From IMG/VR virus record IMGVR_UViG_3300036760_000069, positions 1 through 64,000 of that record: a stretch of 64,000 bases of DNA, one strand, 5' to 3'. Source of the DNA: a virus. Position numbers and translations under genes: made by a program. Below are positions 3,842-50,597 of the stretch, in pieces. Below the pieces are notes generated by a model. That model saw nothing but the letters and a program-made list of their open reading frames with translations, was not told the DNA's origin and did not search any database. Numbering within the stretch: position 1 is the stretch's first letter; each line of letters starts with the position of its first letter.

Positions 3842-3845
3842 CGCC

Positions 3846-9458: not shown

Positions 9459-10115
9459 TTATGCGCTGAACCCAGCCGCCAAGTTGGCGTAGGTCTCCGC
9501 TCTCGGCACCACGATGATAACCGGCACCCCAGACCCGGCCGTCGTGGTCGTGTTGACCAACGCCTGCACGGAATTTCCGGGGAGCAGGTCGATATCCAGC
9601 GTGTTGCTCAGATTCTTATACAGCACCGAGCCCACGGCCTGACTCGCCACGACCGAGGGGGCCGTGAGCGTGCCATCCGCCTGCGTGCCGGTCAGCCCTG
9701 CCGTCTTCGTCCCAATGGCATTGGGCGCGGTGTAGCTGTCAAAGAACAGGACGAGGGCCGTCACGGTGCCCGCCACCTGCCAGGCAAAGGAAATGTCCTC
9801 GACCGAACAGTAGTCCGACACCTGATGATTGAGCAGATTCGCCCCCGACGTCACGACCGGATTGGTGCCGCTGACGTTCGGAACCAAGGGTTGCCGGCTC
9901 TCCCAGCCATACCCCGCCCCGCACAGCGGACGCCCAAAGACCGACCGCGCAGCCAGCTCCGCCCAGTGGCGAGGCCCCTGCAAGAACTTCATCGCCGCCA
10001 CCGCCTGCGCTTCGTGACAGACATACGGGCCGAGATAGGTGCGCCGCACCGTTCTCCAGAACTCGTTCAGCTTCGACCGCAGGCTGAACCGTGGAATCAG
10101 AATCATCGTGTTCAT
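9459..10115 (-). CDS. Capsid decoration-like protein with long N-terminal leader
   Basis: Follows the MCP; basic leader ends at GRPLCGAG, then a beta-rich body. Confidence 0.6.
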   Translation of the reverse strand: MNTMILIPRFSLRSKLNEFWRTVRRTYLGPYVCHEAQAVAAMKFLQGPRHWAELAARSVFGRPLCGAGYGWESRQPLVPNVSGTNPVVTSGANLLNHQVSDYCSVEDISFAWQVAGTVTALVLFFDSYTAPNAIGTKTAGLTGTQADGTLTAPSVVASQAVGSVLYKNLSNTLDIDLLPGNSVQALVNTTTTAGSGVPVIIVVPRAETYANLAAGFSA

Positions 10116-10186
10116 GGGATCGTCCTCCCCTCCTTCAAGTTATGTCCGTGTCCCCAGACCTCTCCGCCAGTCAAGGCGGCGCGAGG

Positions 10187-35546: not shown

Positions 35547-38500
35547 TTATGGAAAGACGCCCTCGCCAGCGGGGACGAGATCCGCCAGCAAGGGTTTAGC
35601 CGGCGTCAGCCAGTGGTGGGCTTTGAGTTTGGCGATGAAGGCGCGGCGGTCGCCCTCTGGGAGGACTTGGAGCATGGTGGTCGCGTAGTAATTCTCGGCC
35701 CGTTGCAGGATGCGCCGCTCCGCCGGCTCCAGTTGCTTGACCACGGCGTCCCGGTCATTCTTGGTCAGCCCCCAGAGGGGAGTCTTATCCCGGAGCGACT
35801 GGTGCATGGTCTTTGAGGTGCCGCCCAGCTCCTTGTACTCGGCGCGGTATTTCGCCTCGGCGGCCGTGTCTCCGTACTTGATCGAGAGCGCGATGTTCTG
35901 CAAGGCCTCGCCCTTGGGGGTGCGCCAGTAGAGCCCGCCGTCGTCCTTCCCAAGGCGTTGCTTGTACTTGGCCTCGATGTCCTGCCAGCTCTGGTAGGCC
36001 GCCTGGTCGGGGTTGATCTTTCGGATCCCGAGGAAGCCCGTCAGGTTGTCCGATCCGAGGTAGGGCTTGGTCGGCTTGCCGGCGAGGGCGCGTGCCTCCT
36101 GCCCAACGGTCGCCTGCTGGGCCAGATAGTCCCCACGGCTCTGCATCGGGCGCGGGTTAAAGACATCCGGGTAGGTGTTGATACGGCCCACCAGATCCAC
36201 CGTGTCCTTGACCAGCGGGGTGATCCCCTGCCAGACCTTGTTGATCGGGGCGTGCCACGTCTTCTGCCAGATCTCGCCCAGCGTCAGGCGCCCATGCAGG
36301 TAGTCCCCGACCAGCCCGGGGGCCTGGTCGAGGCCGAACCACGACAGGGCATCCCCCAGCGCACCCAGGCCGGTGAAGACCGGGATGCTCCCGTCCTCCC
36401 GTTTGCCACCCAGAATGACATGGATGCGGTTGGCGATCGTGGGGTCCGTGTCCTGCAATTCCCGCTCCTCGTCGTCGAAGACGAAGTTATTCCAGACCTG
36501 GAGCATCGTCCACAGGGCGGCGGCCCGGATCAGGAAGGCGGCGACCTTCTTACCAGCGACACCGGCCCCCCTCGCCCCTGCCCCGTAGTCGGCGTCCTCG
36601 AAGGCGTTCCGCAAGAGATGGGCGTACCGGCCCATATTGACCTCCTGCCAGCTCCAGAAGGGGTACCAGAACCGCCGCAGGGTCTGACCCGCCACAGAAA
36701 CCCGGTCGTAGGCGCCCAGCAGCTCGTTGGAGAGCTTAAACGCCCGATCCCGGATGTCTGGCAAGGCCATGACGGTCTCGCGCCTGGAGGCCCCCCAGTT
36801 CGCCGGGCGGCCCTCTGTGTTACCCTGCATCTGCTCCAGATAGTCGAGGTAGGCAGCGTACCGGAGCATGGCCTCGCGGTAGTCCGTCCCTAACCTCGCG
36901 GCTTTCCAGTATTTATTGAACGCTTCGACGGGCAGAGCCAGCGCGCCACCCTTGCCTTCGCGGTCGATCGTGGCCCGGAAAGCCTTGAGTTCGTTGAGAT
37001 CGCCCATCTCCTGCACCTGGAGGGTGGACCCGTAGCCCCCACGCTCTGCCCATTCCTTTGCCTCGCCGGTCAGGGGTTCATCCTTGAACATGACGGGCCA
37101 CATCTCTTTGATGGCCTGCTGGACCTTCTTGAAAGCCCCCGGGTTGCCGACGAACAGGGCATCCGAGTCGCCGGACAGGTTCCGCAGGTTGTACCCGATC
37201 ACCCGCCGCGGGGCGATCAGCATGACCTGCTTCCAGTGGGATAGGGCCGCCCGGTTGAGATCGACAAACCAGTTCGGTGCCGGCTGGGCCAGCTCGTCGA
37301 GCGTGACCGCCACCTCGTCCTTGACGACATACTGCTCGCGGGGCCCGCCCTGGGCCATCATCGTCCGGAGCATCTCCTTGGTCAGGCCCACCTCCTCCAG
37401 CGCGTGTTCGTGCAGGGCCTTGGCGAGCTGGGCGGGGATCGTGTCCGCCATGTAGAAGATGTTGCCCTCGCGGGGCTGCCAGAGCGTGTACCCGTCCGGG
37501 ACGAGATCCTGCCAGGTCTTGTACGCCTTCCCCAGCACGCCCTTGATGAACGCTTTGCGCTCGCCGATCGCCTTGAAGATCCCCAGCGCGTGCATCTGGC
37601 CGGGGGATTCCGGGTCGTTGGCGATGGCCTGAATCTGCTCCATCGTCAGCTTGTCGGCCGGTTGCAGATCGAGCGCGTCCCGGAGGCGGTGCTGGTGCAT
37701 CCCCAACCGCTGGCGGAAGTGCTTCATCTGGACGTCAATGAGGCTCACCCCGCCGGGGGCCGCCAGCTCGGCGTCGATCCGCTTTTGAAGGGTCTGCTGG
37801 TTGGCGGCCCGCGCCTCCCCCTTGAGCCGTTGCCGGATGTTATGGGCCTCGTCGACGCCCTTGATGACCTTGGCGAGCTGGGTGTCGTAGGCCATCTGGG
37901 CCATGACCTCGAACTCGGCCTGGATGTAGTTCGCGTTGATGTCGAAGGTGGACCCCTCACGCTTCTTGAGGAACCCCCGACCGGTCGGCGTCCGGAGCCG
38001 CTTGCCAGACCCAGCAATCAACCGTTGCTCACGGGCATAGTCCAGTACCTGATGCCGGAAGTAGTCCTCCTTGGTCAGCTTCTTGCTCACATCGAACCCG
38101 ATGGCGTCCATGGCCTTCTTGTAGTCGGTCGTCAGGCCCTTCCAGAGTTCCTTTCGAGCGGCCCAGGCGGCTCGAATAGCGGGATCCTTCTGGACGCGAT
38201 CATCAATCCGTTCCAGATCGTGCGTGACCGAGTCCGGCGTGTACTCGAACGGGAGTTTGTTCCCCTTCGCCGCTTCGTGCGAGAGGTCGGTCAGCAACGC
38301 CTTCCATTCGAGGTCGTCGTATTGCATTGGCGAGAGGGGCTTGACGATCCGCGCCAGTTCGCGCTCGATCCGGTCTGCCTGGATGCCCTTCTGCTTCGAG
38401 AGCTTGAGGAGGTCGTTGCGGAGCCGGCTGAACTCGGCGGTATCCGGCAGATGCTCGAACTCGCGGGAGGTCAGGCGCCAGACCTGCTTGAGATGCTCTT

Positions 38501-41500
38501 TGGCCCACTCCTTCCAAGAGATCGGTTGCAGACCCTTCTTGGCCTTGCGAACGCGAGCATCAATAGTCGGATTGGCCGATCTGAACCAGCCAGGCTTTGG
38601 CCCCTCGTTCACCTCCTTCCCGAGCGGCACGCCGCCACGCTCATTGAAGCGGCGCATCTTGGAGATACCCTCGTTCGGCACCCAGGCGAGGATGGCCTTG
38701 ACGCCCTTGTTGATCGCAGCGTACTGCCGGCGGCGGCCGTCGAGAGCTTCGCCGCCTTCGCCGTCAATGATGATCGGGTACTTCCCGGTCGGCGTCTCGG
38801 TGGTCAGCTCGAGTGTCTTAGGGTTGACCGCCTTCAGCGTCCACTTGTCGCCGTACCCGCTGATGCCGTGGAGGTCGTTATAGTCGAGCTTGCCGAAGGA
38901 GTCCTTCAGGGGGAGGGTGTCGAGGTAGTCCTCGAACTCGGCGCGGGTGAGCGTGTCGCCTTGGACAGGCTGGCCTCTCTTGGCGCGACGATCAGGTAGT
39001 GCGGCGCGGGATGATACCGCTTGGGCCGGACGCTGACGGCGGCCTGGTAGAGGGATTTGGGATTGTGCCCCGCCGCCTTCGCCTCCTTCAGGATGTGCCG
39101 CACCGAGTCCGCGTCCACGAAATCGTTCATGGCCGGTGCTAATCTTCTCAAAAACGTCATGTGATTCTTCACCCTGAAAGGGTTTGAGTGTGTCGACGTC
39201 AGCGGCAATTTGTGCAAGGAGAGTTTTGGCACCATTGGGGCCTCCCATGTCGCCCAGCATCACCTCAAGGGCGGCGGCGCTTTCCTTGATCGTGCGGGCT
39301 TGATTGTAACTGTTGATGGCGGCGAACGCTTCATTGTGCGGGCGCACGGACTGATGACTGATTTCATGCACCGCCGTCGAGATCACCATGGCGGCAAACT
39401 CTTTCGCCAGATTCTCCGGCGGAATCCGTCCGTTCAGCACATGCCCATTGACATCCTGGTAGATGTCGTAGGGGTTGATGAGAATGTAGTTGCTCTGGTC
39501 GCCCTTGAAGATCGAACTCCCGCCGATGTTCACGCCGAGGTACTTGCCGATTCCGATCCCCTGGAAGACGACCGATCCGTACTGATCTCCGTAGGGGATC
39601 AGCGCCTTCTGGAGTGGCGCAAAGGCGCGGGCCATCATCAGCGCGAGTTGCTTGACATGCGGTTGGTCCGCCATCTCCTTCAGGATCTCCGGCGGCACGG
39701 TCTGCTCGGTGTCCATGAACTGGAAGTCCGTGCCGGGGACATCCGGGGCCTCCTCGAACGCCTTGCGGAACGTCTCCCGCTCCACATCCAGCGCGTCGGT
39801 GACGAGGTCTTGGATCAGGTACTTGCGGATGACGTCCTTTACATCGCCGCGCAACTTCTCCCGGTTCGTCGTGAAGGGGTAGCCCGTCTGCCCCGGCGTG
39901 CGGCGCGACCGGATGTTGGCGAGGATGGTATGCGGGAGCTTGAGCTTGTGCCCTTTGCCGAAGCTGACGTTGATCGTGAACTGGTAGAGGCCGTTGTTCA
40001 GGATCTGCACCTTGCCTGTCTCCATCTCGGCGGTGCCTTCCGCTGCGGAGAAGTCCACCTCGCCGCCCTGGAACTCCAGCGTGCGTGTCCGGGCCACGCC
40101 CATCGCCTTCCAGTTCTTCTCGGGGTTGATCTCCAAGCCCCCGATCGAGGCCGAGAGCTTGAGCGGCATCTGGTGAAAGGCCGTGACGTTCTCCAGCCAC
40201 TTGCGAATCGCCGGCGTATCGAACTCCATCTTGTCCGGGTACTTGAGCCGGACACGGGTGCCTGGGGTCGCGTCGGGATCGGCCGCCTTGATCGTGGCGG
40301 TCAGGCCCTTCTCCTGGTTCAGCCAGTCGGCCCCGGACCCGCTTAGATGCGTCTCAACCATGCCACGGGCCGGATCGTAGGCGACCGTCTTGATGTCGAT
40401 GTTGTCGGCCCCGGCGAAGATGACCACCTTGGCGACCCCGAACATGCCGGCGGCGTCTTCAGTCTTCTTGCTCCCGCCAAAGTCCACCAGCTCCTTGAAC
40501 GCCACATCAGGGAGCATCCCGGTTCCCGTGTCGTCAATCGTGATCTTGTGATCGTCCGGGAAGACCTCGATCCGCACCATGGCCCCCGCTTTGTCGGTCA
40601 GCCCGCGGGTGCCGTCCGTGGCGTTCTGCACCAGCTCCTTGACGATGACCTTGGAGGGATGCTCGGAGTACAGGCCCTCGCCCATGGCCTTGATGCGGTT
40701 CGGGTCGATGCCGGCGGCGGCCCCGTGCCCACCCTCCTCTTTGACGACCTTGATATAGGAAACATCAGCACGCCCATATTGTGTATCTAACACGACCATC
40801 GCTGGGAACGACTTCGCCCCCAGTAACTTCAGCGCGTCGAAGCGGTGGCCGCCTTCCAACACATACGGGCCTGCCTTACTCCCATCCTCGACGACGATCA
40901 GCGGTTCGATTTCACCAGACTCCTTGATCGTGTTCGCAAGAGCTTCGACCTTGTGCTTCTCTGTCCGGGAATAGAATGAAGGCTTTCCATCGTCTTGAAA
41001 TGCGGAGATCGGCACCTCGCGTACACCGTCAAGTATTTCGTACTTCGTCAGGCTGGCCTTAATGGAGGACTGGTTGGACGCCTCGCCCACCACCCGGCGC
41101 CCATCAACCACATTACCGGCCCGCTTGAACTTTGTCTTGAACGCCTTCATGTGGCTGGTGATCTCGCCCTGCCCCATCTCGGAATCCACGATCTCGGCGA
41201 CGGGGTGGTTCGCCACGATCTTTTCAAAGGCCGAGGCCCCCTTCTCGCCCGTCGGGATGAAGATGCGCGTCTTGAACTGGATGATCTCGCGGAACGCCCC
41301 GGCGGCCTCCAGCTCCTTCCACGCCCGCTCGACCCCGTTGCCCACGATCTCGATGCGCGTCTCGCCGGCGACGGTCTTGCGCTCGAACCGCCACCCGTTG
41401 ACCAGCGCGATCTTGCTCCGCTTCTTGAGGATGGTGTCCATGGCCTGCGCGGGCGTCAGCGTCGGCAAGTCCACCGAGGCCCCCAGCCGGCGGAGAACAG

Positions 41501-44500
41501 CCGACACATCGCCCTCCCGGACCACCCGCCCCAGATACCGCTTGCCGGTGTCGTCCTGGACGCGCATGACTCGGACATGGTCCTGCGGGAGCCTGTCCCA
41601 TATCGGGAGCAAGGTGCCGGAAATCAGATGCAGGGGTTCCTCGCGGTAGGGTGGATGCGTGTCAATCGTCTTCTTCCAGAGGGCTTTGCCGGCGTCTGGA
41701 TTGATCGCCGCGTAGTGCTTGCTCAGGCCGTCCTCGTCCACATAGTAGTACGTCTCGGCGACGGGGCTGATGAGGCGGAAGTGTTTGTTGACGCCTCCCG
41801 TTTTCGGGTCCGTGCGCGTTCCGGTATAGACCGAGGCGAAGACCTTCTCGGTCTTGTTGCTCTGGACGTACCCCTGAAAGCCCTCCTTCTTCTCGACCTC
41901 CTTGGTCTGGACGAAGTTCACATCATGCTTGGTGTCCATCGAGACCATCGACGTTGTGGCGCCGCTGATCGGATCGCGGTAGACCTGTTGTTCCTTGATC
42001 GTCTTCACGCTGCGAGCCTTGTACGTTTCGAGACCCACATCGAGTTGTCCGAGCGAGGCCGCGTGGTCGATCGCCTGCTCCATGCGCTCGCTGAAAGCAT
42101 CGAACACGGCGTTTTGATCGTGGATCTCCAAGGCCAGAATCCGATTAAGAAACTGCGGGACTTTCGGGATCTTGTCCTCGTTGATGGACCCATCATCGGC
42201 GACAAGGCCCGTCAGCCCCATCTTGCCCTCGATCATCTCCTTGAAGTCCACGGTCGGGACTTCCCCGCGATGGGCGTCCAACACCAGTGCCCGCACCGCG
42301 CCTTGCGCGTATTTGTTTTCAAGGTTGTCTTTGGCGTTGATGAGGCCTGAGCTGCCCGTCTTGCGCTCGCCCTTGGTCATGGCCCCAAGCTGATCCAACC
42401 GGCGGCCGATGGTCGAGATAAACCGCTTGTGCCCTTTCAGGTTCGTCATCACCAGCACATAATGCGGGGCATTGGCCTCGTTCGTGCGGTGTGAACGGCC
42501 CAGCCCTTGAATGAACTTTTCCGCCCGCCAGCCAGGTTGCACGCCATAGTGCCAGCGTTGCCGCTGGTTCTTGATACGCCGATCCGAATGGAAGCTGCGC
42601 CCAGTGCCGCCGGCGTCTGAAAAGACAAGGATCGACTTCTTATCAGCAAGGTATTCGTCTACCTCATGGGCGGCGAGCGAGGGTGAACGAGACTGGATCA
42701 CCGTCTTCTCGCGCCCCAGATTGTCTTTGAGGCGCACCACGCGGCGGCTCCGACCCGTGACTTCCGCCACGGCGTCCGGCCCAAAAGTGTTGATGATGAA
42801 CTCCAGCGGGCCTTCGGGTACCTTCAGCGACCCGACCGAGAGAAGCATGTCCTGCTTGAGCTGGATGGCGTCCTGGTTCTGCACGGGGTTGCCATCATGG
42901 TCCAGCACGGGGCGAGACCGGATGTTCCCTTGCTCGTCCTGGTACTGCTCGTACTGTTGCGTCGGAAAGGACTTCTCCAGAAACTGCATCAGGGCATCGC
43001 GTGGCGTGAGATCGAGATTTTCCAGATCGCCGTCTTCTTGCTCGGCGTTTTGGATCTGCCGCTCCATGCCCGCCTCGTTGGTGTTGACGAGTTGAGCGAT
43101 AATGGCCTTGCCATCCTTGATCTTCGCTTCCATATCGGCGATGACGGTGGGCATCTGCATGGCCGTCAGCACCTGATTGAAGAACCGGAGTTCCGTGCCC
43201 CAGAAATTGGAGAGCAAGGTGGACTTGGCGCCCGCGTTCTTGGCCTTCCCGCCCTCGGTGACGCCCGTGAGTTCGAGGGCCTGATTGATGTTTGCCAATA
43301 CCACCTGCCATGCCCGCGCCAGTCCGTTGTAGATGTCTTCTTGTTCTGGCGTCAACACATGCTCAAGAGTGCTATATGTGACCTCTGAGAAGTCGAGCGA
43401 GCGAGCGATATAGACGCCCATGGCCTTCATGTCACGGGCGACCACTTCCATCGCACCCAAACCGCCTTCCGTGATCTTCGCCGAGAAATCATTCTGGTCA
43501 GGGAAGGCCGTACCGGGCCCCCACAGACCGAGCCGTTCAGCATACCCCAGCGTGTCTACCGAGTTCGCGCCGGTCGCCGAGGCATACACAATGCGAGCCT
43601 TCGGCACCTGCTTGCGGAGGTCAAGGGCCGCAAGAGCCTGGATGGAGGCTTGCTGGTGGATGCCACGCGCCCCCATCGACTGCGTGGTCTTTTGCATGTT
43701 ATGGGCTTCGTCGAACACGATCACGCCATCGAAGTCTTTGCCGAGCCACGCTAGGATCTGATTGACCCGCGATTGTTTGGGCTGGTTCGTTTTCTTGTCT
43801 GTAATGGGAATGACCTTGCCGGTCTTATCCGTCATTAAGTTGGAGCGGATCGTGGCATAGGTGGTGAACATAATGCCCTTGGGTTGGTCGATCGGTTCGC
43901 CGAGTTTGGTCTTGCCGAGTTCAAAAACTTGGCCCTTGTCGCCGCCAATATCCACCCAGTCGCGCTTGGCGTCGGCTATGAGCCTAGAAGACTCCGAGAC
44001 CCAGATGGCTTTCTCGCGCCCGTTGCGGAAGTTATCCAGAATGACGGCGGAGATCTGCCGGCCCTTCCCGACCCCCGTGCCATCGCCCAAGAAGAAGCCC
44101 TTGCGCGTCCCGTCTGACAGAAATAACTCATGGGCCTGTCCTGCGTACACGGGCGTCTCGAGCTGGGCCAGCGAGAGGGCGCCGGAATCAATCAGATCCT
44201 GCGGCAGGTTGGGCGTGTAGGTCGGATCGGGCGGGAGCGTGTCCGCCATGGCCGCCGACTCTACCAGTTTGCCAGGGTGCGGTTTGGCACCAGGAATCCG
44301 CACCTTGGGTGGTTGGTACTCGTCGTAGACGGCGTCGGTGAGTTCTTTGGTCGTGCTGGGGAACTTGGATTCAGGTTCGCTGGAAGCGACGACCGTTATC
44401 CCGGACTGAACGGGTATATGGGCGGGTACGTTCCCTTCATCCGCGGGTCGTCCCGCAGGCGCAGGTCGAGGGCCTCCAGTACCTTCACCGCCGCCCGCCT

Positions 44501-47500
44501 TGGGCTCATGGCCTTGGATAGGTCGCTCTCCTCCAGCAACGGGGAGTCCGGGCTCTCTGGGCTGTTGAGGAACCACTCCAGCGCCCTCTTTCCGTCCGGG
44601 TACGCGAGGAGGCCGTCCAGTTTCTGTCGCAGGATGTCGCTGTCCCCCCCCGGCGGTGTGGTCAACCGGCCGTGGTCGAGTCCCCACATCGCCAGTTGGA
44701 ACAGGTACGGCAGATCCGGGTCCGGTTTGGCCCCCGCCACCTTCAGCCACCGCTTGGCCTCCACGTTGAGCGGGTGGTCGTTGTTCGTCTGGTCGGGTCG
44801 CTTGTCCTTCAACGCTGGGGCGGTCATCGCGCACCTCCTTGAGGAGATTGAGGGCTTCATAGGGGTTCTCGGCCTTCCCTGTTACCACCTCTACTGAAGG
44901 AGAGGGGGCCACTTTATCGAAAATCAAGATGCGGTTGTCAAAATCAGTGCCGTATTTCTTGTACCCCTTGCCGGACATGACCACGCTGGCACGAAGCTGG
45001 TACTTCTTGGCGAGGGCGTCGATGGCGCGGGAGACCCCCTCGGACTGCCCCATGAACCCCTCGCCGATCAGGGCGACGAGTCGCCCATTCGGGGCCAGGA
45101 GCTTCAGGGCCTGGTCGATGTGTTTGCTGATGGCGTTGGTACTCTTGCGCTCGCCCGTGATCCGGCCGGCCGTCGAGGAAAACGGCGGGTTCATCACGAT
45201 CACCGTGGGCGTGACTTTGAGGATGTTGGCAATCTGTTCGGCGTTCTCCGTCGTCACCTTGTTGAAGACGATGGTATTGAGGAGTCCGGCCCGCCGCGGC
45301 GAAAGTTCGTTGACATCCACATCGGCCCCGAAGTTCTTGGCGAAGATCGCCAGCCCACCCAAGCCGGCACTTGGCTCCAGCATGACATCCTTGGGGGTGA
45401 TGTGCGCCGCCCAGTTCATCACGAACGCCAGATCCGGGGGGGTCGAGAACTGTTGGAACTCGACCATCTCCGGCGTGCGTCTCGTCCCCTGCGACGGGAT
45501 CTTGTCCATGATCTGCTCACGCAGGTAGTTGAGCATCTCCCGCGCTTTTATGAGGCTATAGGTGGTGGGTCTGTAGACGCCATCAGGGCCCAGCATCTCG
45601 CCGATGAAGCGGTTGATCCCCAGCTCGAGGGCATCATTCAGATCCTTGACGGTGTAGGTGCCGTCCGCCTGTGTGCCCCCAAAGTCCTCATTGGCTCGCG
45701 TGACCAGTTGATCCATGCTGAACGACAGTACACCAGGCGCCGTGTCCTCTTTCAGGCGTTCCTCGACAAAGTAGGCGATGTTCATACTCGCGCCGACGAT
45801 CTTCTGCTCCGTGGTCGCTGGAGCTTCAACCGCCGGGATCGTGGGCTCGTCGGGTAAGACCGCGCCGCGCCCGCCCTTGGTGAGCAGGTCCGCCTTCTCC
45901 TGATCGGTCATGGCGGGCTTCGGAGCGGGCAGGCTGGGGGTCGTCGGGCTGGGCGTCTTCGGTTCGCTGGCCTTGACCTGTGAATCGTAGAAGGCATCCA
46001 ACGCAGACTTCTCGCTCCCGATCGGACGATCAGGCGTCCCCGGCATGAAGCCCCATTTTGAGCCATCTGGGCGGTAGATGTTCCATTCCTTGCCGGTGCG
46101 CCGTGCAGTCCACCCTGCGGCGAGAAATTCATCCTTGGTCATGTCGGCAGGGTTGGCCGTTGGGACGGTCTTTGTCTCTGGCACCAGCCCAGGCGTCTGA
46201 GCTTCGGCCTTCTGCGGATACTCGTCAGGGTGGTGCGCGAGCTTGTACTTCGCGTCCTCGATCGCCCGCTCCCATCGTGCCCAGTCGTCCGGGTAGCCGT
46301 GCGTTTCAAAGTCGTCGAGGCCGGCTTGCGCGACTTCGATGATTCGGTATGGATCGCCAGCATTCTCGGCCTTTGTCAGGGCGCGCTTGTGCTTGCGGTA
46401 GAGATCCTGCCGGAAGTCGCCCGTGGGGGCCTTGTCCTCGTCCTTCCAGCCGCCGGGAGGGGGCTTGTCGGCGACGGTCGGACGCTCAGGAGAAGGCAGG
46501 CCAGGAGCGGCATGGTGTTCGGCCTTGGGTGCTTCCGGTTTTGGCTCCTCTGGTGTTTTCTTGGCGACAGGTCGATAGACTTGGATCCCCTCATCCCCTC
46601 GTTGAATAGCTTCGTAGAGACGGTTATTGCCATCAATCACCTCGCCCGCATGATCCAGCACAATCGGGCCATTCGTCATTGACCCTCGCGGAACAAACTC
46701 GGCGCCATCCCAGAGCATCTCGTTACCTTTACGAAGTGATTCGATCGGCACTCTTGCCTGTTCCCACTGTGAATCGGTGAGATGGGCGTCCTCGTTCTTG
46801 TTTGTTTTACGTCCCAGCTCCGTGTACCCGATAGCGTTCTGAGCGGACTCTGGGAGTTCCTTAAAAGCCAGCGTCTTTATCGATTTGATTTCCTGTTTGG
46901 GGATTGGGAATCCTGGTGCGGCAGGGCGTTCGGCTTTGACTTCTGGTTTTGGCTCCTCTTTTGAGGGCGCAGAACCGGAACCTGCCGGCATCGTCAGCGC
47001 ATCCTGCACCTGCTTCTTCTGCTCATCGCTCAGGCCGTTGTACGGGCGCCCGAACAAACCACGTGCTGCCTCGTTCGGCGTGGCATACTTCTTGGGCGAG
47101 AGGGCCTCATTCGCCGTCTGCCCCTTCCCGACCGTGAAGTTCGCCTCGGCGGCGGCGGCGGCCTCCTCCATCGACGGGTAGGTGCCAAGCGTGTCCTTAC
47201 CGCGAATGTCCCACGCCTCAAACTGCCCGTCGTCGCGCTCAATGACCATGGCCTTCGGCTTCTCAGGATTGCCGCCGGCCCAGATGTAGGTCGATTCGCC
47301 AGGTACGGCCCCATGTTCCCACCCCGCCGGCAAGCCTGTCGTTGGTTCATTCGCCGGAGCCACACCTTGCTCAGTTTGGGGGGCTGGCAGGCCAGGAACA
47401 GGGGTAGGTTGAATGTCGGAGACCCTATCCGCACGCTTCTTCAGGAACGGTTCGCGTTGAACTGGAGCCAATTCTGGCGGAATGGCGGCTACTTCGGCCT

Positions 47501-49394
47501 TGGCCCGCGCATTGACCTGATCGCCCACCCTGGGTGGACGGGCTTCGGGGCCAGCGGCAGGGGGTGGGGCTTCGATGCCGGGGACGGTTCCCGTAATCTG
47601 CTTCACTGAACCAGAATCTGTCTCAGCGCGCCGCCCACTTTCTGCGGGGTTAGGCGGTTCTTGTCCTTCAGGTTGTCCTGGCGGTTGGACCGTCCGCCCG
47701 CCCTTCTGGGCCGCTTTGAGGGCGGTATTGTACGCCTCGGTCAGGTCCATGAAGGCCTTTGTCTTGGCGGCCTGCGCCTTTGGGTCTGGGTCTACAAGGT
47801 CCGGGCGCATGGACTTAACCGCGTTTCGGTACGCGGCCTTCACATCGGCATCCGTCGCCGTGTCAGGGTCCAGCCCAAAGAACTCGAACGCCTTGGCATT
47901 GTATTGCTTGGTGGGTTCGCCGGCCTGGCTCTCCCATCTGGCCCGCACCCCCTCCATGGCGGCCGTCGGGATGCCGAACATCGCCGCCATCGAGACCACA
48001 TCCTTCCAGTCGTCCCCAAAGGCAGCTCCGTAGGCGGCCCCCGTGGCGGTCTGGGCGGCAACATGGACGGCCTTTCCGAGTGGGCGTGTGACTTGTCCCA
48101 CTACGCCTGGTACCGTAAAGAGCGCGGCGGTTTTAGCCGCTTCGGCGGGAGACTCCTCGGCACCCTTGGTGAATCCCACGATCCCAGGAGCGACGGTTGC
48201 GGCGGTCTTTCCGACCATCCCGAGAGCGGTCAGTCCTTTGGTGACGGCGGACAACGGGATGCCATATTCAGCCGCGAATCCAGCCAGACCCGAGGCAACC
48301 CGATCTGCAATGTCGAGAGCATCCTGTGTGCTGGTGGTGGCTCCACTCTGCCGATTCGTCTTAGCAGGCAGGTACTTTTCGAGACCATCGGCATAGGAGT
48401 TCAAAATCTGGCTGAACTCCGGGATGCGCGGATCCTCTGCCATCCGCCGTCGAGTGGCTTCAGGAAGACGGGTCAGGATGTCAGGGAGTGGACCTTCACC
48501 GGCTTCCTGTCGGCTCATGGTGATGGCGTCGAGTTGTGCGCTGAGTGACCGCAGGAGATTCGCCCCACCCGAATTAACGGCCTGGGCAACTGAGAATGTG
48601 AAATTCTCAAGGCTTTGTGGAGAGGCTGGCCCTTGGCGTTGCGGGGTTGGCAGTCCTGGTACTTGGACGGTCGGACGCAGAACCTCCGGTTGCTCAATCG
48701 CCTGTCCGGTAACACGGGTGGTCGGGATTGCGTTTTTGTCAATCGTGGGCGCGGGTTCTTCAACCGGGTTGCCGGTGATCGTGTCGATCATCTGCCCGCT
48801 CTGGGTGACAAAGCGGTTGGGATGCTCCGGGAGCTTGAACCGCGACGGCCAATGCCCGCTGGCGTCCGGGGTGGCGCCGGCGGTGTAGGCTCCACGGTAG
48901 TCGTAGAAGTGTTGCGGGTCGTCCGGGTTGGGGTTCAGGCCCTGCGTGGCGGCGTGCCCCCCGTACCACTCCTGGAAGGCGGGTTCGTTGAAGGCGGGCT
49001 TGGCGGCAACGGGCGCGGGCGTCGGAGCCGGGCGTGGCTGCGGCACCAGATCCCCGTAGAAGGAGCCGACCTCCTTGGCGGTCTCAATCGGCGAGGTGAT
49101 GACGTCGACCGCACTCTTGCCGAGGCTGGCGGCGCCGGTCTTGATGTCCTGCCAGAACCCTTGCGGCTGGGGCGTGGTCTCCAGCCCCTGCACCTGTTGC
49201 AGCTCGGCACGCCGTTTCTGGATATAGGCGTCGAAATCTGGTTTGGGGGCGGTCTGGAGGTGCTTGAGCCACCGCTCATCGCCGGGCAGAGACCCGACCT
49301 TCAGCTCGGCGATCGCCGCCTCGCGGGTCGAGGTGGGGACGAAGTCCCGGAGCCAGGTCGCCGTCTCGTCGTCTTCGAGGAGCGGCCGGGCCAC
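35547..49394 (-). CDS. Giant polyvalent ejection protein (DarB-like): J-domain, 3 ParB-like, N6-MTase, strawberry-notch helicase, GHKL ATPase, HExxH
   Basis: EPSAGLG/NPPF; GDGTGVGKG/DEAH/QGLGRSHR; ELVQNATD/DTGTGM/GMFG; HEISH; IDGNNR, LEGGHR, LDGRRR. Confidence 0.88.
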   Translation of the reverse strand: MARPLLEDDETATWLRDFVPTSTREAAIAELKVGSLPGDERWLKHLQTAPKPDFDAYIQKRRAELQQVQGLETTPQPQGFWQDIKTGAASLGKSAVDVITSPIETAKEVGSFYGDLVPQPRPAPTPAPVAAKPAFNEPAFQEWYGGHAATQGLNPNPDDPQHFYDYRGAYTAGATPDASGHWPSRFKLPEHPNRFVTQSGQMIDTITGNPVEEPAPTIDKNAIPTTRVTGQAIEQPEVLRPTVQVPGLPTPQRQGPASPQSLENFTFSVAQAVNSGGANLLRSLSAQLDAITMSRQEAGEGPLPDILTRLPEATRRRMAEDPRIPEFSQILNSYADGLEKYLPAKTNRQSGATTSTQDALDIADRVASGLAGFAAEYGIPLSAVTKGLTALGMVGKTAATVAPGIVGFTKGAEESPAEAAKTAALFTVPGVVGQVTRPLGKAVHVAAQTATGAAYGAAFGDDWKDVVSMAAMFGIPTAAMEGVRARWESQAGEPTKQYNAKAFEFFGLDPDTATDADVKAAYRNAVKSMRPDLVDPDPKAQAAKTKAFMDLTEAYNTALKAAQKGGRTVQPPGQPEGQEPPNPAESGRRAETDSGSVKQITGTVPGIEAPPPAAGPEARPPRVGDQVNARAKAEVAAIPPELAPVQREPFLKKRADRVSDIQPTPVPGLPAPQTEQGVAPANEPTTGLPAGWEHGAVPGESTYIWAGGNPEKPKAMVIERDDGQFEAWDIRGKDTLGTYPSMEEAAAAAEANFTVGKGQTANEALSPKKYATPNEAARGLFGRPYNGLSDEQKKQVQDALTMPAGSGSAPSKEEPKPEVKAERPAAPGFPIPKQEIKSIKTLAFKELPESAQNAIGYTELGRKTNKNEDAHLTDSQWEQARVPIESLRKGNEMLWDGAEFVPRGSMTNGPIVLDHAGEVIDGNNRLYEAIQRGDEGIQVYRPVAKKTPEEPKPEAPKAEHHAAPGLPSPERPTVADKPPPGGWKDEDKAPTGDFRQDLYRKHKRALTKAENAGDPYRIIEVAQAGLDDFETHGYPDDWARWERAIEDAKYKLAHHPDEYPQKAEAQTPGLVPETKTVPTANPADMTKDEFLAAGWTARRTGKEWNIYRPDGSKWGFMPGTPDRPIGSEKSALDAFYDSQVKASEPKTPSPTTPSLPAPKPAMTDQEKADLLTKGGRGAVLPDEPTIPAVEAPATTEQKIVGASMNIAYFVEERLKEDTAPGVLSFSMDQLVTRANEDFGGTQADGTYTVKDLNDALELGINRFIGEMLGPDGVYRPTTYSLIKAREMLNYLREQIMDKIPSQGTRRTPEMVEFQQFSTPPDLAFVMNWAAHITPKDVMLEPSAGLGGLAIFAKNFGADVDVNELSPRRAGLLNTIVFNKVTTENAEQIANILKVTPTVIVMNPPFSSTAGRITGERKSTNAISKHIDQALKLLAPNGRLVALIGEGFMGQSEGVSRAIDALAKKYQLRASVVMSGKGYKKYGTDFDNRILIFDKVAPSPSVEVVTGKAENPYEALNLLKEVRDDRPSVEGQATRPDEQRPPAQRGGQAVAEGGGGQTGPGSAVPVPTGDVGTRPRPVDHTAGGGQRHPATETGRPPRVPGRKEGAGVVPQQPREPGLPVAGGERPIQGHEPKAGGGEGTGGPRPAPAGRPADEGNVPAHIPVQSGITVVASSEPESKFPSTTKELTDAVYDEYQPPKVRIPGAKPHPGKLVESAAMADTLPPDPTYTPNLPQDLIDSGALSLAQLETPVYAGQAHELFLSDGTRKGFFLGDGTGVGKGRQISAVILDNFRNGREKAIWVSESSRLIADAKRDWVDIGGDKGQVFELGKTKLGEPIDQPKGIMFTTYATIRSNLMTDKTGKVIPITDKKTNQPKQSRVNQILAWLGKDFDGVIVFDEAHNMQKTTQSMGARGIHQQASIQALAALDLRKQVPKARIVYASATGANSVDTLGYAERLGLWGPGTAFPDQNDFSAKITEGGLGAMEVVARDMKAMGVYIARSLDFSEVTYSTLEHVLTPEQEDIYNGLARAWQVVLANINQALELTGVTEGGKAKNAGAKSTLLSNFWGTELRFFNQVLTAMQMPTVIADMEAKIKDGKAIIAQLVNTNEAGMERQIQNAEQEDGDLENLDLTPRDALMQFLEKSFPTQQYEQYQDEQGNIRSRPVLDHDGNPVQNQDAIQLKQDMLLSVGSLKVPEGPLEFIINTFGPDAVAEVTGRSRRVVRLKDNLGREKTVIQSRSPSLAAHEVDEYLADKKSILVFSDAGGTGRSFHSDRRIKNQRQRWHYGVQPGWRAEKFIQGLGRSHRTNEANAPHYVLVMTNLKGHKRFISTIGRRLDQLGAMTKGERKTGSSGLINAKDNLENKYAQGAVRALVLDAHRGEVPTVDFKEMIEGKMGLTGLVADDGSINEDKIPKVPQFLNRILALEIHDQNAVFDAFSERMEQAIDHAASLGQLDVGLETYKARSVKTIKEQQVYRDPISGATTSMVSMDTKHDVNFVQTKEVEKKEGFQGYVQSNKTEKVFASVYTGTRTDPKTGGVNKHFRLISPVAETYYYVDEDGLSKHYAAINPDAGKALWKKTIDTHPPYREEPLHLISGTLLPIWDRLPQDHVRVMRVQDDTGKRYLGRVVREGDVSAVLRRLGASVDLPTLTPAQAMDTILKKRSKIALVNGWRFERKTVAGETRIEIVGNGVERAWKELEAAGAFREIIQFKTRIFIPTGEKGASAFEKIVANHPVAEIVDSEMGQGEITSHMKAFKTKFKRAGNVVDGRRVVGEASNQSSIKASLTKYEILDGVREVPISAFQDDGKPSFYSRTEKHKVEALANTIKESGEIEPLIVVEDGSKAGPYVLEGGHRFDALKLLGAKSFPAMVVLDTQYGRADVSYIKVVKEEGGHGAAAGIDPNRIKAMGEGLYSEHPSKVIVKELVQNATDGTRGLTDKAGAMVRIEVFPDDHKITIDDTGTGMLPDVAFKELVDFGGSKKTEDAAGMFGVAKVVIFAGADNIDIKTVAYDPARGMVETHLSGSGADWLNQEKGLTATIKAADPDATPGTRVRLKYPDKMEFDTPAIRKWLENVTAFHQMPLKLSASIGGLEINPEKNWKAMGVARTRTLEFQGGEVDFSAAEGTAEMETGKVQILNNGLYQFTINVSFGKGHKLKLPHTILANIRSRRTPGQTGYPFTTNREKLRGDVKDVIRKYLIQDLVTDALDVERETFRKAFEEAPDVPGTDFQFMDTEQTVPPEILKEMADQPHVKQLALMMARAFAPLQKALIPYGDQYGSVVFQGIGIGKYLGVNIGGSSIFKGDQSNYILINPYDIYQDVNGHVLNGRIPPENLAKEFAAMVISTAVHEISHQSVRPHNEAFAAINSYNQARTIKESAAALEVMLGDMGGPNGAKTLLAQIAADVDTLKPFQGEESHDVFEKISTGHERFRGRGLGAAHPEGGEGGGAQSQIPLPGRRQRPAQAVSSRAALPDRRAKRGQPVQGDTLTRAEFEDYLDTLPLKDSFGKLDYNDLHGISGYGDKWTLKAVNPKTLELTTETPTGKYPIIIDGEGGEALDGRRRQYAAINKGVKAILAWVPNEGISKMRRFNERGGVPLGKEVNEGPKPGWFRSANPTIDARVRKAKKGLQPISWKEWAKEHLKQVWRLTSREFEHLPDTAEFSRLRNDLLKLSKQKGIQADRIERELARIVKPLSPMQYDDLEWKALLTDLSHEAAKGNKLPFEYTPDSVTHDLERIDDRVQKDPAIRAAWAARKELWKGLTTDYKKAMDAIGFDVSKKLTKEDYFRHQVLDYAREQRLIAGSGKRLRTPTGRGFLKKREGSTFDINANYIQAEFEVMAQMAYDTQLAKVIKGVDEAHNIRQRLKGEARAANQQTLQKRIDAELAAPGGVSLIDVQMKHFRQRLGMHQHRLRDALDLQPADKLTMEQIQAIANDPESPGQMHALGIFKAIGERKAFIKGVLGKAYKTWQDLVPDGYTLWQPREGNIFYMADTIPAQLAKALHEHALEEVGLTKEMLRTMMAQGGPREQYVVKDEVAVTLDELAQPAPNWFVDLNRAALSHWKQVMLIAPRRVIGYNLRNLSGDSDALFVGNPGAFKKVQQAIKEMWPVMFKDEPLTGEAKEWAERGGYGSTLQVQEMGDLNELKAFRATIDREGKGGALALPVEAFNKYWKAARLGTDYREAMLRYAAYLDYLEQMQGNTEGRPANWGASRRETVMALPDIRDRAFKLSNELLGAYDRVSVAGQTLRRFWYPFWSWQEVNMGRYAHLLRNAFEDADYGAGARGAGVAGKKVAAFLIRAAALWTMLQVWNNFVFDDEERELQDTDPTIANRIHVILGGKREDGSIPVFTGLGALGDALSWFGLDQAPGLVGDYLHGRLTLGEIWQKTWHAPINKVWQGITPLVKDTVDLVGRINTYPDVFNPRPMQSRGDYLAQQATVGQEARALAGKPTKPYLGSDNLTGFLGIRKINPDQAAYQSWQDIEAKYKQRLGKDDGGLYWRTPKGEALQNIALSIKYGDTAAEAKYRAEYKELGGTSKTMHQSLRDKTPLWGLTKNDRDAVVKQLEPAERRILQRAENYYATTMLQVLPEGDRRAFIAKLKAHHWLTPAKPLLADLVPAGEGVFP
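44396..44827 (-). CDS. Nested out-of-frame gene (143 aa) inside the giant ORF
   Basis: AAGGAGGT 5 nt before ATG; globular-looking product while the host frame reads as a G/R/P linker. Confidence 0.6.
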   Translation of the reverse strand: MTAPALKDKRPDQTNNDHPLNVEAKRWLKVAGAKPDPDLPYLFQLAMWGLDHGRLTTPPGGDSDILRQKLDGLLAYPDGKRALEWFLNSPESPDSPLLEESDLSKAMSPRRAAVKVLEALDLRLRDDPRMKGTYPPIYPFSPG

Positions 49395-49397: not shown

Positions 49398-50597
49398 CTA
49401 CCCTTGACGGCTACCGAGAATCGCCGGACTCACCAAGTCGGACTGGCGGCGCGCACGGGGAATACCAGACCCCCCGCCAGGAGCCGCTCGGAATCCACGC
49501 GGCTTGTGCGTGAAGTTCTGCTCAAGGACAGCGCGTTCGCCGCGGGTCGTCCCCTTGTCCAGCCAATGCGTCAAGCCAGCATGCAGATCCTTGTCGGTGA
49601 TCTGCCCGTTCTCGTCCATGGCGAGCCCCAGCACGTTCTGGCGGAAGTCCGCCAGTTGCTTTTCGTAATACTGTTGCGTGCCCTGCATCTCCAAGAGCTT
49701 CGCCTCGATCCCTGGCACCTTCTCTGGATCGGCGTTCTTGGCAATGTCGAGTTGCTGTTTGAGGTGCCGCGCCTGATAGACATGCTGGGCAAGGCTCGAC
49801 TCCAACCCCTTATAGCCCGCCATCTCCTCCTTGAGCTGGAGCATGAAGTTGTCCCGCGCCTTGGCTTGCTGGCCCATCTGCCGGTACTTGCTGATCGTGG
49901 CAGGGTCAGCTTTGTCCGGGAACTCCTCGGCCTGTTGGAGCGGTCCACCGCCAGCCAGGGTGGCCTCGGCGCCGCCCGTCGGTCCCTGCATCGCCAGCGT
50001 CTGCGGTTTCGCCGCCAGCACATCCGCTCGCGGGGGCGGCTCCATCGCCTGCGCCGCCTCCACGCCAGGGTTGTTGGGGTTCTCGTCCGCCGGAATCACT
50101 TCCTCGCCTTGATGAAGCATGGCCGGGCCGGTGCGCGGCACCAACGGCGTGCCCTGCGCGTAGGCAGGCATGTTTGACATGCCACCCATTTGCTCCGACG
50201 CCGTATTGTCAGGAGTCAGAGGGGCACCATCTCGATTCAACGTAAACTGAAACGGATCTTGGGGGGGCAACTGTGCGGGGCCCTCATCAACCTTTTCTGT
50301 CACAGGAGCGTCCGGCACGCCGCCCATGGACGTTGCATCCGGTGCGCTGGTCGCCGGTTTAGGTCGGTACGTCTTTGACGGAGCTTGCGGATCTCGTCCG
50401 CCCGCCTCGAAATCAAACTTGTCGCGGGCCAGCTTGTCCGCACTTTCACCCCGCGCTTTCAAGTCGTCAATGTGTTTCTGGTAGGCCTGGTTCCGCTTGT
50501 GCGCGAGGTAGAACTGCATGATCTGTGGAACGGCGTGCGCGATCCCGCCGGCGATGGCATCCGCACGCGGCGGCTTTTTAAGCTGATACGGGGGCAT
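49398..50597 (-). CDS. Putative ejection (internal virion) protein
   Basis: Precedes the giant protein; P/A/Q-rich plus coiled coil. Confidence 0.6.
   Translation of the reverse strand: MPPYQLKKPPRADAIAGGIAHAVPQIMQFYLAHKRNQAYQKHIDDLKARGESADKLARDKFDFEAGGRDPQAPSKTYRPKPATSAPDATSMGGVPDAPVTEKVDEGPAQLPPQDPFQFTLNRDGAPLTPDNTASEQMGGMSNMPAYAQGTPLVPRTGPAMLHQGEEVIPADENPNNPGVEAAQAMEPPPRADVLAAKPQTLAMQGPTGGAEATLAGGGPLQQAEEFPDKADPATISKYRQMGQQAKARDNFMLQLKEEMAGYKGLESSLAQHVYQARHLKQQLDIAKNADPEKVPGIEAKLLEMQGTQQYYEKQLADFRQNVLGLAMDENGQITDKDLHAGLTHWLDKGTTRGERAVLEQNFTHKPRGFRAAPGGGSGIPRARRQSDLVSPAILGSRQG

What the first reader, a model, noticed from the sequence alone, without database searches (positions are those of the whole stretch)
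44396..44827. Same-strand gene hidden inside the giant ejection protein
Seen: between the MTase and helicase domains the giant frame reads as R/G/P-rich low-complexity linker. A shifted frame has a perfect AAGGAGGT RBS, an ATG and 143 codons of normal helical protein (EAKRWLKV, YLFQLAMWGLD, RALEWFL). Inference: a real nested gene, with the linker being its overprinted by-product. It could be a chaperone or an inhibitor of the flanking enzymatic domains.
Basis: partly seen in the sequence, partly recalled or inferred. Interest (0 to 1): 0.7.

Follow-up and report, generated by a model that had tools for sequence, protein, structure and literature searches.

The report
Hidden gene inside giant gene's linker
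A real, unannotated 143-codon gene for a small folded helical protein is written one base out of step inside the floppy spacer that joins the methylase and helicase parts of a 4,615-residue phage protein. Related phages and some plasmids keep both readings intact, so one stretch of DNA makes two products; the small protein's job is still unknown.

Summary
On the minus strand, AAGGAGGT (44840-44833), five bases, ATG (44827) and 143 codons lie in the +1 frame of the 4,615-aa ORF, between its N6-adenine methylase and strawberry-notch helicase. The nested frame carries the coding signal: GC3 is 0.86 against 0.45-0.49 for the giant frame. It has 104 homologues and a confident six-helix model (pLDDT 87). 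The same SD-ATG-ORF sits at the same spot in about 23 of 25 related viral contigs and in three Methylococcaceae plasmids. The giant frame there is an unconserved, low-confidence R/G/P spacer, yet it stays open far more often than chance allows (P=0.0055 here). Both frames are therefore maintained. Free-standing, HTH-fused and tandem versions of the small protein exist. Pfam, PHROGs, NCBIfam, PADLOC and PDB do not name it, and it is not TnpV by the tests run. Its function is unknown: a non-enzymatic binding module, either a TraH-like helper of the giant protein or an autonomous mobile-element module. A second candidate nested gene (38906-39235) lies in another linker; its relatives sit next to, or are fused with, relatives of the first. 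This scan has already reported the same kind of nested gene in at least 20 other genomes. I found no published description.

The parts
44396..44827 (-). Nested gene 1: 143 codons plus stop, in the +1 frame of the giant ORF. It encodes a small six-helix protein of an unnamed family (P0001 from residue 12).
   Evidence: GC1/2/3 in this frame about .63/.49/.86; 104 homologues; pLDDT 86.7; family HMM E=1e-47; codon-usage r=0.60.
44833..44840 (-). Shine-Dalgarno AAGGAGGT, 5 nt upstream of the nested ATG. In the giant frame it encodes K-E-V of the conserved motif LL[KE][EG][VI]R[ND]xR.
   Evidence: An SD core (GGAG/GGAGG/AAGGAG) lies at the same distance in most relatives, even where the giant-frame residues differ (K-E versus E-G).
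44391..44858 (-). Giant-frame spacer (about aa 1513-1668): R/G/P/A-rich, unconserved, no predicted structure. Its frame is kept open across the nested gene.
   Evidence: P open = 0.0055; no conserved columns; pLDDT 39-52, no secondary structure; r=0.15.
44859..45857 (-). N6-adenine DNA methyltransferase module of the giant protein (NPPF motif; about aa 1180-1512).
   Evidence: PHROG DNA methyltransferase; invariant M-N-P-P-F-S.
42024..44282 (-). Strawberry-notch-type SF2 helicase module (AAA_34 at aa 1705-2023, Helicase_C_4 at aa 2197-2457).
   Evidence: E=1e-111 and 9e-81.
35547..49394 (-). Giant 4,615-codon polyvalent-protein ORF that hosts the nested gene(s). The exact start codon is uncertain.
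38906..39235 (-). Candidate nested gene 2: 109 codons plus stop, +1 frame, inside a second R/G/P-rich linker (giant aa about 3405-3475). SD GGGAGG is at 39246..39241.
   Evidence: giant-frame GC1/2/3 = .80/.56/.45; 62% identity to a free-standing gene next to the gene-1 homologue in L029; 38% identity, E=1e-13, to the N-terminus of fusion protein P0004. Not found in relatives.

Best explanation
SHOWN OR STRONGLY SUPPORTED. The segment 44396..44827 (-) is a genuine protein-coding gene fully embedded, in the +1 frame, in the spacer between the methylase and helicase modules of a polyvalent-protein gene. Both frames are maintained. The small gene is under ordinary protein-level constraint. The giant frame is constrained only to stay open, as a disordered tether.

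INFERRED. The small protein is made by internal initiation at its own conserved SD-ATG on the giant gene's mRNA. No internal promoter or terminator was seen. It would therefore be produced whenever the giant protein is, but as a separate chain with its own stoichiometry.

INFERRED, about 65%. The small gene's frame is the older one, and the giant protein's spacer was overprinted on it, as proposed for the HBV polymerase spacer over the S gene.

FUNCTION, inferred with low confidence. The product is a non-enzymatic, mostly acidic helical binding or oligomerisation module. My preferred reading (about 40%) is an accessory factor for the giant protein or the DNA-entry process it serves. The precedent is the acidic TraH, encoded inside traI of RP4, which stabilises the TraI-TraJ relaxosome. 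In this phage it may work with the product of a second nested gene at 38906..39235.
For: - Coding signal: over gene nt 4500-4950 the giant-frame GC1/2/3 is .85/.6-.7/.45-.49, against .65/.44/.78 gene-wide. The normal pattern sits in the +1 frame.
- Codon usage: correlation with the rest of the gene is 0.60 for the nested frame. In-frame chunks have a 5th percentile of 0.56. The linker frame gives 0.15, like off-frame chunks. The direction is the same in 16 of 18 relatives.
- Homologues: 104 proteins at E<=1e-3, mostly 120-150 aa, with motifs N..PLNQEA..WL, LYLLQL..WGL and SP..AA.
- Fold: AF2 pLDDT 86.7, pTM 0.77, six helices.
- Conservation in relatives: the family HMM hits the +1 frame in 20 of 25 related viral loci (E=1e-5 to 1e-39) and never the giant frame. 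Three further loci carry divergent copies.
- Same-column test: on the same aligned columns, nested-frame amino-acid identity exceeds giant-frame identity in 10 of 10 pairs (window-L002.44 versus .23). Nested codon position 2 is the most conserved.
- Start site: SD plus ATG are conserved at one spot. In 18 of 19 sequences the giant codon is [AG]AT followed by G... The T-ending Asn/Asp codon is used every time, although gene-wide shares are .24-.81 (product 10^-6.7).
- Giant frame kept open: synonymous resampling of the nested codons leaves it open in 0.55% of trials here (4.5 stops expected) and in <=1.25% in 19 of the 22 related loci that carry the nested gene.
- Plasmids: the same layout is in Methylotuvimicrobium alcaliphilum 20Z plasmid MEALZ_p and in Methylomonas LL1 and AM2-LC plasmids, unlisted in their gene tables.
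- Non-nested forms: free-standing genes (L028-L031, L035), an XRE-HTH fusion (P0028) and a tandem duplicate (P0015).
- Linker length: dyads without the gene are shorter from NPPF to DEAH (389-410 aa against 441-572 aa), apart from L020 at 496 aa.
- TraH precedent: PMC7314908. HBV model: PMC8227390.
Against: - There is no direct evidence of translation. No RNA, Ribo-seq or proteome data could be reached.
- All evolutionary tests use diverged sequences that are not phylogenetically independent.
- On polarity: the closest free-standing copy (L029, 60% identity) still has the 'giant' frame open for 113 codons (P<2e-4), and its DNA homology is limited to the small gene. It looks like an escape from a nested state. 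Free-standing copies therefore do not prove that the small gene came first.
- On the helper reading: bacterial genomes G055 and G006 carry free-standing copies but showed no strawberry-notch helicase match. HTH fusions also argue for a role independent of the giant protein.
- The window's own copy is not acidic (pI 6.1, against a family median of 4.8).
- Relatives L018/L019 and L020 lack the gene and have no copy elsewhere in their records.
Confidence: 0.87

Rival explanations
1. The nested gene is real but autonomous. It would be one more conflict or regulatory module of mobile elements (for example an anti-defence or partner-sequestering protein). It merely resides in the linker and acts on host or element targets unrelated to the giant protein.
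For: Free-standing copies occur in mobile-element or defence-island-like surroundings. L035 lies between an AriA/GajA-like ATPase and a PIN gene, near an Eco57I-type methylase and an E1/E2/JAB system. L029 lies near an AAA_25 RepA-like gene. G055 and G006 show no Sbno helicase match. There is an XRE-HTH fusion, P0028. Distribution is sporadic: 3 of 81 related bacterial genomes. A stand-alone, fused and in-polyvalent-locus distribution is what Iyer et al. describe for polyvalent-protein modules (PMC5512222).
Against: The gene is kept at exactly one position, between methylase and helicase, over deep divergence (flanks 35-50% identical) and in both phages and plasmids. There is no PADLOC hit. 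The charge is too modest for a DNA mimic (median -7; window copy -1.3).
Confidence: 0.4
2. The helical segment is really part of the giant protein. It would be reached by recoding (+1 then -1 frameshifts, or a +1 shift giving a truncated N-terminal product), or the frame offset would be an assembly artefact.
For: An internal SD can stimulate +1 frameshifting (the prfB precedent, from my own knowledge). The nested frame has the coding signal, and the giant frame looks like 'wrong-frame' sequence.
Against: The same offset, bounded by stops on both sides, recurs in more than 25 independent assemblies, including finished plasmids of cultured strains. In-frame stops lie 1-2 codons upstream of the nested ATG in several relatives. 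ATG and SD spacing (5-8 nt) are those of an initiation site, and the T of ATG is selectively kept. The giant frame is kept open, which artefact or double-shift models do not need. Free-standing homologues are about the same size.
Confidence: 0.04
3. The +1 ORF is a relic or a compositional accident that is no longer expressed.
For: In this GC-rich window alone the +1 frame stays open in 14% of linker resamplings, and AAGGAGGT occurs four times in the gene. There are no expression data.
Against: A 125-codon copy persists in a 33%-GC relative (L023), where the chance of staying open is 0.15%. Motifs, start site and fold are conserved across sequences only about 30% identical.
Confidence: 0.03

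Closest known systems
RP4 (IncP-alpha) traH inside traI
   Same: [quoted passage not shown] TraH stabilises the TraJ-TraI complex at oriT (PMC7314908). It is the best functional analogy for a 'helper made from inside its client's gene'.
   Different: No sequence relationship was tested or implied. The host gene there is a relaxase, not a methylase-helicase polyvalent protein. Binding of the present protein to its host gene's product is not shown.
Hepatitis B virus polymerase spacer over the preS/S gene (modular-evolution model)
   Same: A disordered, tolerant spacer between two enzymatic modules of a large protein shares its DNA with a folded protein read in another frame. The model posits a short pre-existing gene between two modules that was later read through (PMC8227390). 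The asymmetry is the same: constrained small gene, free-running spacer.
   Different: HBV is an animal reverse-transcribing virus with a 3-kb genome under extreme compaction. Here an 87-kb phage and >100-kb plasmids have no obvious need for compaction. Polarity here is not settled.
Rz/Rz1 embedded spanin genes of lambda-like phages (my own knowledge, not re-examined)
   Same: A complete gene with its own SD lies in the +1 frame wholly inside another phage gene. The two products work together.
   Different: Rz1 is a short lipoprotein (about 60 aa) inside a gene of about 150 codons. Here a 143-aa folded cytoplasmic-type protein lies inside a 4,615-codon gene, confined to an inter-domain spacer.
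DarB-type methylase-helicase dyad of polyvalent proteins (Iyer et al. 2017, PMC5512222)
   Same: The host gene has the described architecture: an EcoKI/TaqI-like N6-adenine methylase (NPPF) followed by a SWI2/SNF2-clade helicase, here the strawberry-notch type that the paper notes in a Methylomonas protein.
   Different: The paper does not mention a nested or overlapping gene in the dyad linker.
TnpV-like genes nested in polyvalent genes
   Same: Same layout, as reported by other agents on other genomes.
   Different: The present family is not TnpV by the tests run. There is no Pfam hit in 40 members and no PF14198 match in the genome at E<=10. hhalign probability is 0.07% against one TnpV.

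Membership tests
Embedded same-strand overlapping gene pair | Inner ORF lies wholly within the outer ORF, same strand, different frame, both open | tested here: met
   +1 frame, 143 codons inside 4,615. The same holds in about 23 of 25 relatives and 3 plasmids.
Embedded same-strand overlapping gene pair | Inner gene has its own translation start signals | tested here: met
   AAGGAGGT-N5-ATG. SD and ATG are conserved in position, and the T of ATG is kept against codon preference.
Embedded same-strand overlapping gene pair | Protein-level selection on the inner frame | tested here: met
   104 homologues, an HMM specific to the +1 frame, same-column identity higher than the giant frame in 10 of 10 pairs, and a confident fold. 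No formal two-frame dN/dS was run.
Embedded same-strand overlapping gene pair | Outer frame is also maintained across the overlap | tested here: met
   Synonymous resampling gives P(open)=0.0055 here and <=0.0125 in 19 of the 22 related loci that carry the nested gene.
Embedded same-strand overlapping gene pair | Both products demonstrated experimentally | not testable with these tools
   No RNA run is listed for this DNA. There is no proteome access.
Polyvalent protein with DarB-type methylase-helicase dyad (PMC5512222) | N6-adenine methylase with an NPP[FY] motif fused N-terminal to a SWI2/SNF2-clade helicase, within a many-domain protein of a phage or plasmid | tested here: met
   NPPF and invariant methylase motifs. 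AAA_34 plus Helicase_C_4. ParB_N, DnaJ-like and further domains are present. The record is a virus record.
Polyvalent protein with DarB-type methylase-helicase dyad (PMC5512222) | Delivered with the DNA (virion-packaged or ejected) | not testable with these tools
PHROGs gave no structural or ejection annotation.
TnpV (PF14198) | Match to the Pfam TnpV profile, or profile-level similarity | tested here: not met
Ocr/ArdA-type DNA-mimic anti-restriction proteins | Very acidic surface mimicking DNA; known fold | tested here: inconclusive
   Family median pI is 4.8 with net charge about -7, but the window copy has pI 6.1. No such chain appeared in the fold searches, which does not exclude it.

The most novel reading that the evidence does not exclude
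The disordered linkers of giant polyvalent proteins serve as shelters for separately translated partner subunits. In this phage, two small proteins are each written in the +1 frame of a different linker of one 4,615-codon gene. Their relatives are adjacent genes in L029 and a single fused protein in P0004. Together they would form a hidden module that is co-expressed with, and acts on or with, the methylase-helicase machine during DNA entry or virion/T4SS loading. That would add unannotated subunits to DarB-type anti-restriction systems in phages and conjugative plasmids.
Probability: 0.3. Interest if true: 0.8.

Novelty: new variant of a known kind. Interest (0 to 1): 0.64.

Why it matters
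- **Rarity.** Long, fully embedded same-strand genes are rare and usually contested in bacteria and phages. This one rests on independent lines: codon signal, homologues, fold, start-site conservation and maintenance of both frames. It recurs in phages and in plasmids of cultured methanotrophs, so it can be tested at the bench.
- **Annotation blind spot.** Gene finders forbid nested calls, so a whole protein family is invisible in phage and plasmid records. It shows up only on short contigs or where it is free-standing.
- **Unusual asymmetry.** A folded, normally coded small gene lies under a disordered spacer of a giant protein. The closest parallel is HBV, but here there is no genome-size pressure. 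This raises the question of why the arrangement is kept: co-expression, stoichiometry or lock-in.
- **Possible missing component.** If the small protein works with the methylase-helicase dyad, a component of a widespread anti-restriction device has been overlooked.

Tried and rejected
- **Complex prediction:** nested protein against the methylase module plus the helicase N-lobe, each with an alignment, gave no verdict (score 0.00, controls not run). This is not evidence either way.
- **The look-up of encoding contigs:** The contexts of most of the 104 homologues, and how many are nested, could not be read.
- **The look-up of sequencing runs:** no RNA holder is listed. The only run is the probable source DNA, held as contigs.
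- **Fold and feature searches:** Foldseek against PDB and BFVD found nothing at E<=1e-3. VIA-align wide gave a best Z of 3.8. The ESM Atlas gave no usable hit. An HMM against PDB sequences found nothing below E=0.05.
- **Family libraries:** Pfam, PHROGs, NCBIfam and PADLOC found no family.
- **GenBank phages:** tblastn and blastn found no match to the small protein or to the methylase-helicase region. The plasmid collection had no match to the small protein by tblastn; the plasmid copies were found only by HMM.
- **Whole-segment identity:** global pairwise identity of the two frames did not discriminate (.28 versus .31), because low-complexity linkers align spuriously. It was replaced by the same-column test.
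- **Helicase tree:** the base is unresolved. One row (L003) was wrongly cut and one (L016) was dropped. The tree needs at least 4 changes of the trait, but a single origin is not excluded.
- **TnpV lead from earlier notes:** negative.
- **Second nested gene:** not found in five relatives' records or in viral contigs, no near-length homologues, no Pfam hit.
- **Internal signals:** no sigma-70-like promoter or terminator around the nested gene.


Full report
**1. What is there**

The window belongs to an 87,117-bp IMG/VR virus record. On the minus strand a single ORF runs from 49394 to 35547 (4,615 codons). Pfam finds AAA_34 (aa 1705-2023, E=1e-111) and Helicase_C_4 (aa 2197-2457), which is the strawberry-notch type of SF2 helicase. 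It also gives weaker ParB_N and DnaJ matches.

Upstream of the helicase lies an N6-adenine methylase with the NPPF motif. This is the methylase-helicase dyad of 'polyvalent proteins' described by Iyer et al. 2017, with P1 DarB as archetype (PMC5512222).

Between the two modules the giant frame reads about 150 residues of R/G/P/A-rich sequence.

**2. Which frame carries the coding signal**

- Gene-wide, GC at codon positions 1/2/3 is .65/.44/.78. Over gene nt 4500-4950 the giant frame shows .85-.88/.60-.71/.45-.49. The normal pattern has moved to the +1 frame (.63/.49/.86).
- Codon usage of the nested frame correlates with the rest of the gene at r=0.60. Ordinary in-frame chunks of this size have a mean of 0.76 and a 5th percentile of 0.56.
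- The linker frame gives r=0.15, like off-frame sequence (mean 0.01, 95th percentile 0.29). The same direction holds in 16 of 18 relatives.

**3. The small protein is a real family**

- A full HMMER scan of 1.84 billion representatives found 104 proteins at E<=1e-3 (18 at <=1e-10), mostly 120-150 aa.
- They share the motifs N-x-x-P-L-N-Q-E-A-x-x-W-L, L-Y-L-L-Q-L-x-x-W-G-L and S-P-x-x-A-A. The conserved residues are mainly hydrophobic. Asn32 is the only nearly invariant polar residue, which argues against an enzyme.
- With that alignment AlphaFold2 gives pLDDT 86.7 and pTM 0.77, with six helices between residues 30 and 137.
- No library names the family: Pfam, PHROGs, NCBIfam and PADLOC.
- No solved or predicted viral structure resembles it convincingly.
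- The family is mostly acidic (median pI 4.8; 84% below 5.5), but this window's copy has pI 6.1.

**4. Conservation of the nested layout**

Twenty-two viral contigs encode relatives of the methylase-helicase region at 34-51% identity. Four more were found through the small protein.

- In nearly all of them the giant frame is continuous and the +1 frame holds an open stretch of 115-166 codons at the same place.
- A profile of the family hits that +1 stretch in 20 of 25 loci (E=1e-5 to 1e-39) and never the giant frame. L005/L006 and L023 carry visibly related but more divergent copies. L018/L019 and L020 lack the gene.
- On identical aligned columns, amino-acid identity in the nested frame exceeds that in the giant frame in all ten pairs tested (for example .44 versus .23). 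Nested codon position 2 is the most conserved.
- An alignment of the giant-frame segment shows conserved flanks (...LEGVRNxR and ELTDxVYxxYxPxxxxIxGAKPHPGKLVESAAM) with no conserved column between them. Its AF2 model has no secondary structure and pLDDT 39-52 across the spacer.

**5. The start site**

In 18 of 19 sequences the nested ATG is formed by a giant-frame Asn/Asp codon ending in T, followed by a codon beginning with G, within the motif R-[ND]-x-R.

- The T-ending synonym is used every time, although its gene-wide share is .24-.81. The product of these shares is 10^-6.7, though the sequences are not independent.
- An SD core lies 5-8 nt upstream in most loci. It persists where the giant-frame residues differ (K-E = AAGGAG, E-G = GAAGGAG), which points to a constraint on the nucleotides.
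- No promoter-like or terminator-like site lies inside.
- I therefore infer internal initiation on the giant gene's mRNA.

**6. The giant frame is also maintained**

I kept each nested protein and redrew its codons from the gene's own usage.

- The giant frame then acquires 4.5 stops on average here and stays open in only 0.55% of trials. The figure is <=1.25% in 19 of the 22 related loci that carry the nested gene.
- Read-through of the spacer is therefore under selection. This is true dual coding, not a small gene lying between two genes.
- The converse test is weaker here: the +1 frame stays open in 14% of trials given the linker residues. It is striking in the 33%-GC relative L023 (0.15%).

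**7. Beyond phages**

GenBank phages gave no match. However, 593 plasmid records carry a related dyad.

- Three Methylococcaceae plasmids have the long linker, the LLEGIRNDR motif, SD-ATG and a nested ORF of 113-115 codons. They are M. alcaliphilum 20Z MEALZ_p, Methylomonas sp. LL1 and Methylomonas sp. AM2-LC. The HMM gives E=1.6e-10 and 3e-8 for two of them; the third is their clear homologue by eye.
- None of these nested ORFs is in the gene tables shown.
- Seven alphaproteobacterial and Nostoc plasmids have no such ORF. In the four measured, NPPF to DEAH is 389-398 aa, against 441-572 aa in loci with the nested gene (493 aa here).
- A helicase tree does not resolve whether the trait arose once.

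**8. Free-standing and fused forms, and polarity**

- The small protein also occurs as an ordinary gene in L028/L030/L031 (after a secreted repeat protein).
- It does so in L029 too (60% identical, same C-terminus; a neighbourhood with an AAA_25 RepA-like gene).
- In L035 it sits in a defence-island-like stretch with an Eco57I-type methylase, an M78 peptidase, ubiquitin-like E1/E2/JAB genes, an AriA/GajA-like ATPase and a PIN gene.
- P0028 fuses it to an XRE-type HTH, and P0015 is a tandem duplicate.

By the usual criteria (codon usage, disorder of the novel frame; PMC8227390) the small gene looks like the older frame and the spacer like the overprint. The short-linker dyads fit a gain.

There is one caution. 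In L029 the frame that corresponds to the giant frame is still open for 113 codons (P<2e-4), and DNA similarity to the window is confined to the small gene. That copy probably escaped from a nested state. Traffic runs both ways, and I put the 'small gene first' reading at about 65%.

**9. Function**

Nothing tested reveals it.

- The conserved hydrophobic core, the HTH fusion and the tandem duplicate point to a binding or oligomerisation module.
- For a helper of the giant protein: the fixed position between methylase and helicase in phages and plasmids, guaranteed co-expression, and the precedent of acidic TraH inside traI of RP4 (PMC7314908).
- Against an obligatory partnership: G055 and G006 carry free-standing copies but gave no strawberry-notch helicase match.
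- I rate helper at about 40%, autonomous mobile-element module at about 40%, and other at 20%.

**10. A second candidate**

A scan of the whole giant gene for the same frame switch found one more region, aa 3360-3500, where giant-frame GC1/2/3 is .80/.56/.45. It holds a +1 ORF of 109 codons (38906..39235), preceded by GGGAGG-N5-ATG.

- Its product is 62% identical to a 79-aa free-standing gene that lies 30 nt downstream of the gene-1 homologue in L029.
- It is 38% identical (E=1e-13) to the N-terminus of P0004, whose C-terminus is a gene-1 homologue.
- Adjacency in one genome and fusion in another suggest that the two small proteins work together. Here they sit in two different linkers of one gene.
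- Support is thinner than for gene 1. There is no copy in five relatives or in the viral collection, no family, and the giant frame stays open in 3.9% of resamplings.

**11. Standing**

I found no published description of a gene nested in the dyad linker. The polyvalent-protein paper does not mention one, and literature searches returned only general work on overlapping genes.

Within this scan the same kind of layout has been reported for at least 20 other genomes. Some of those have TnpV-like inner genes, others have unnamed small acidic proteins. The present family is not TnpV by the tests run.

I class it as a new variant of a known kind (embedded out-of-frame genes such as Rz1 in Rz, traH in traI, and HBV S under the polymerase spacer).

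Noticed in passing
window 38906-39235 (-): Second candidate nested gene: 109 codons, +1 frame, own SD, inside another R/G/P-rich linker of the same giant ORF. Its relatives lie next to (L029 4421..4660) or are fused with (P0004 N-terminus) relatives of nested gene 1. It was not found in other relatives.
   Followed up: partly
L029 3974-4390: This free-standing copy of the small gene (60% identical) keeps the former 'giant' frame open for 113 codons (P<2e-4). DNA homology to the window stops at the gene's ends. It looks like a gene that escaped from a nested position and is now start/stop-coupled (ATGA) to an upstream lipoprotein-like gene.
   Followed up: partly
L035 1-20000 (G055:C22:78151-98150): The free-standing homologue (9959..10465) sits in a defence-island-like stretch. 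The stretch holds an Eco57I/TaqI_C-type methylase (1,124 aa), an M78 (IrrE-like) peptidase, Multiubiquitin+E2, JAB+ThiF(E1), an AAA_15/21 ATPase (best PADLOC hits NsnB/AriA/GajA) and a PIN gene.
   Followed up: partly
window 36635 (-), inside the giant ORF: AGGAGG-N5-ATG lies in the giant gene's own frame, 362 codons before its stop. It could be an internal in-frame start giving a separate C-terminal product.
   Followed up: no
window 49394 (-): The listed GTG start of the giant ORF has no SD and lies 4 nt from the end of the upstream ORF (49398..50597). The true start of the giant gene is uncertain.
   Followed up: no
window 46395-48794 (-), giant aa about 200-1000: In several further stretches giant-frame GC3 is not the highest codon position (P/A/E-rich linkers). 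They hold +1 ORFs of 86-136 codons. Their GC2 is too high for ordinary coding, so they look compositional, but they were not compared with relatives.
   Followed up: no
L020 about 3650-3900; L018/L019: These relatives lack the nested gene. L020 keeps a long linker (NPPF..DEAH 496 aa). L019 has a short one (410 aa). No copy of the small gene is found elsewhere in their records. They may be secondary losses.
   Followed up: partly
L028 4470-4919, L030 230-679, L031 1919-2362: A conserved secreted protein with NPYG/SPYS repeats (78-87% identical among the three) lies immediately upstream of the free-standing small gene in three related bacterial contigs. In L028 the small gene appears C-terminally truncated.
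   Followed up: no
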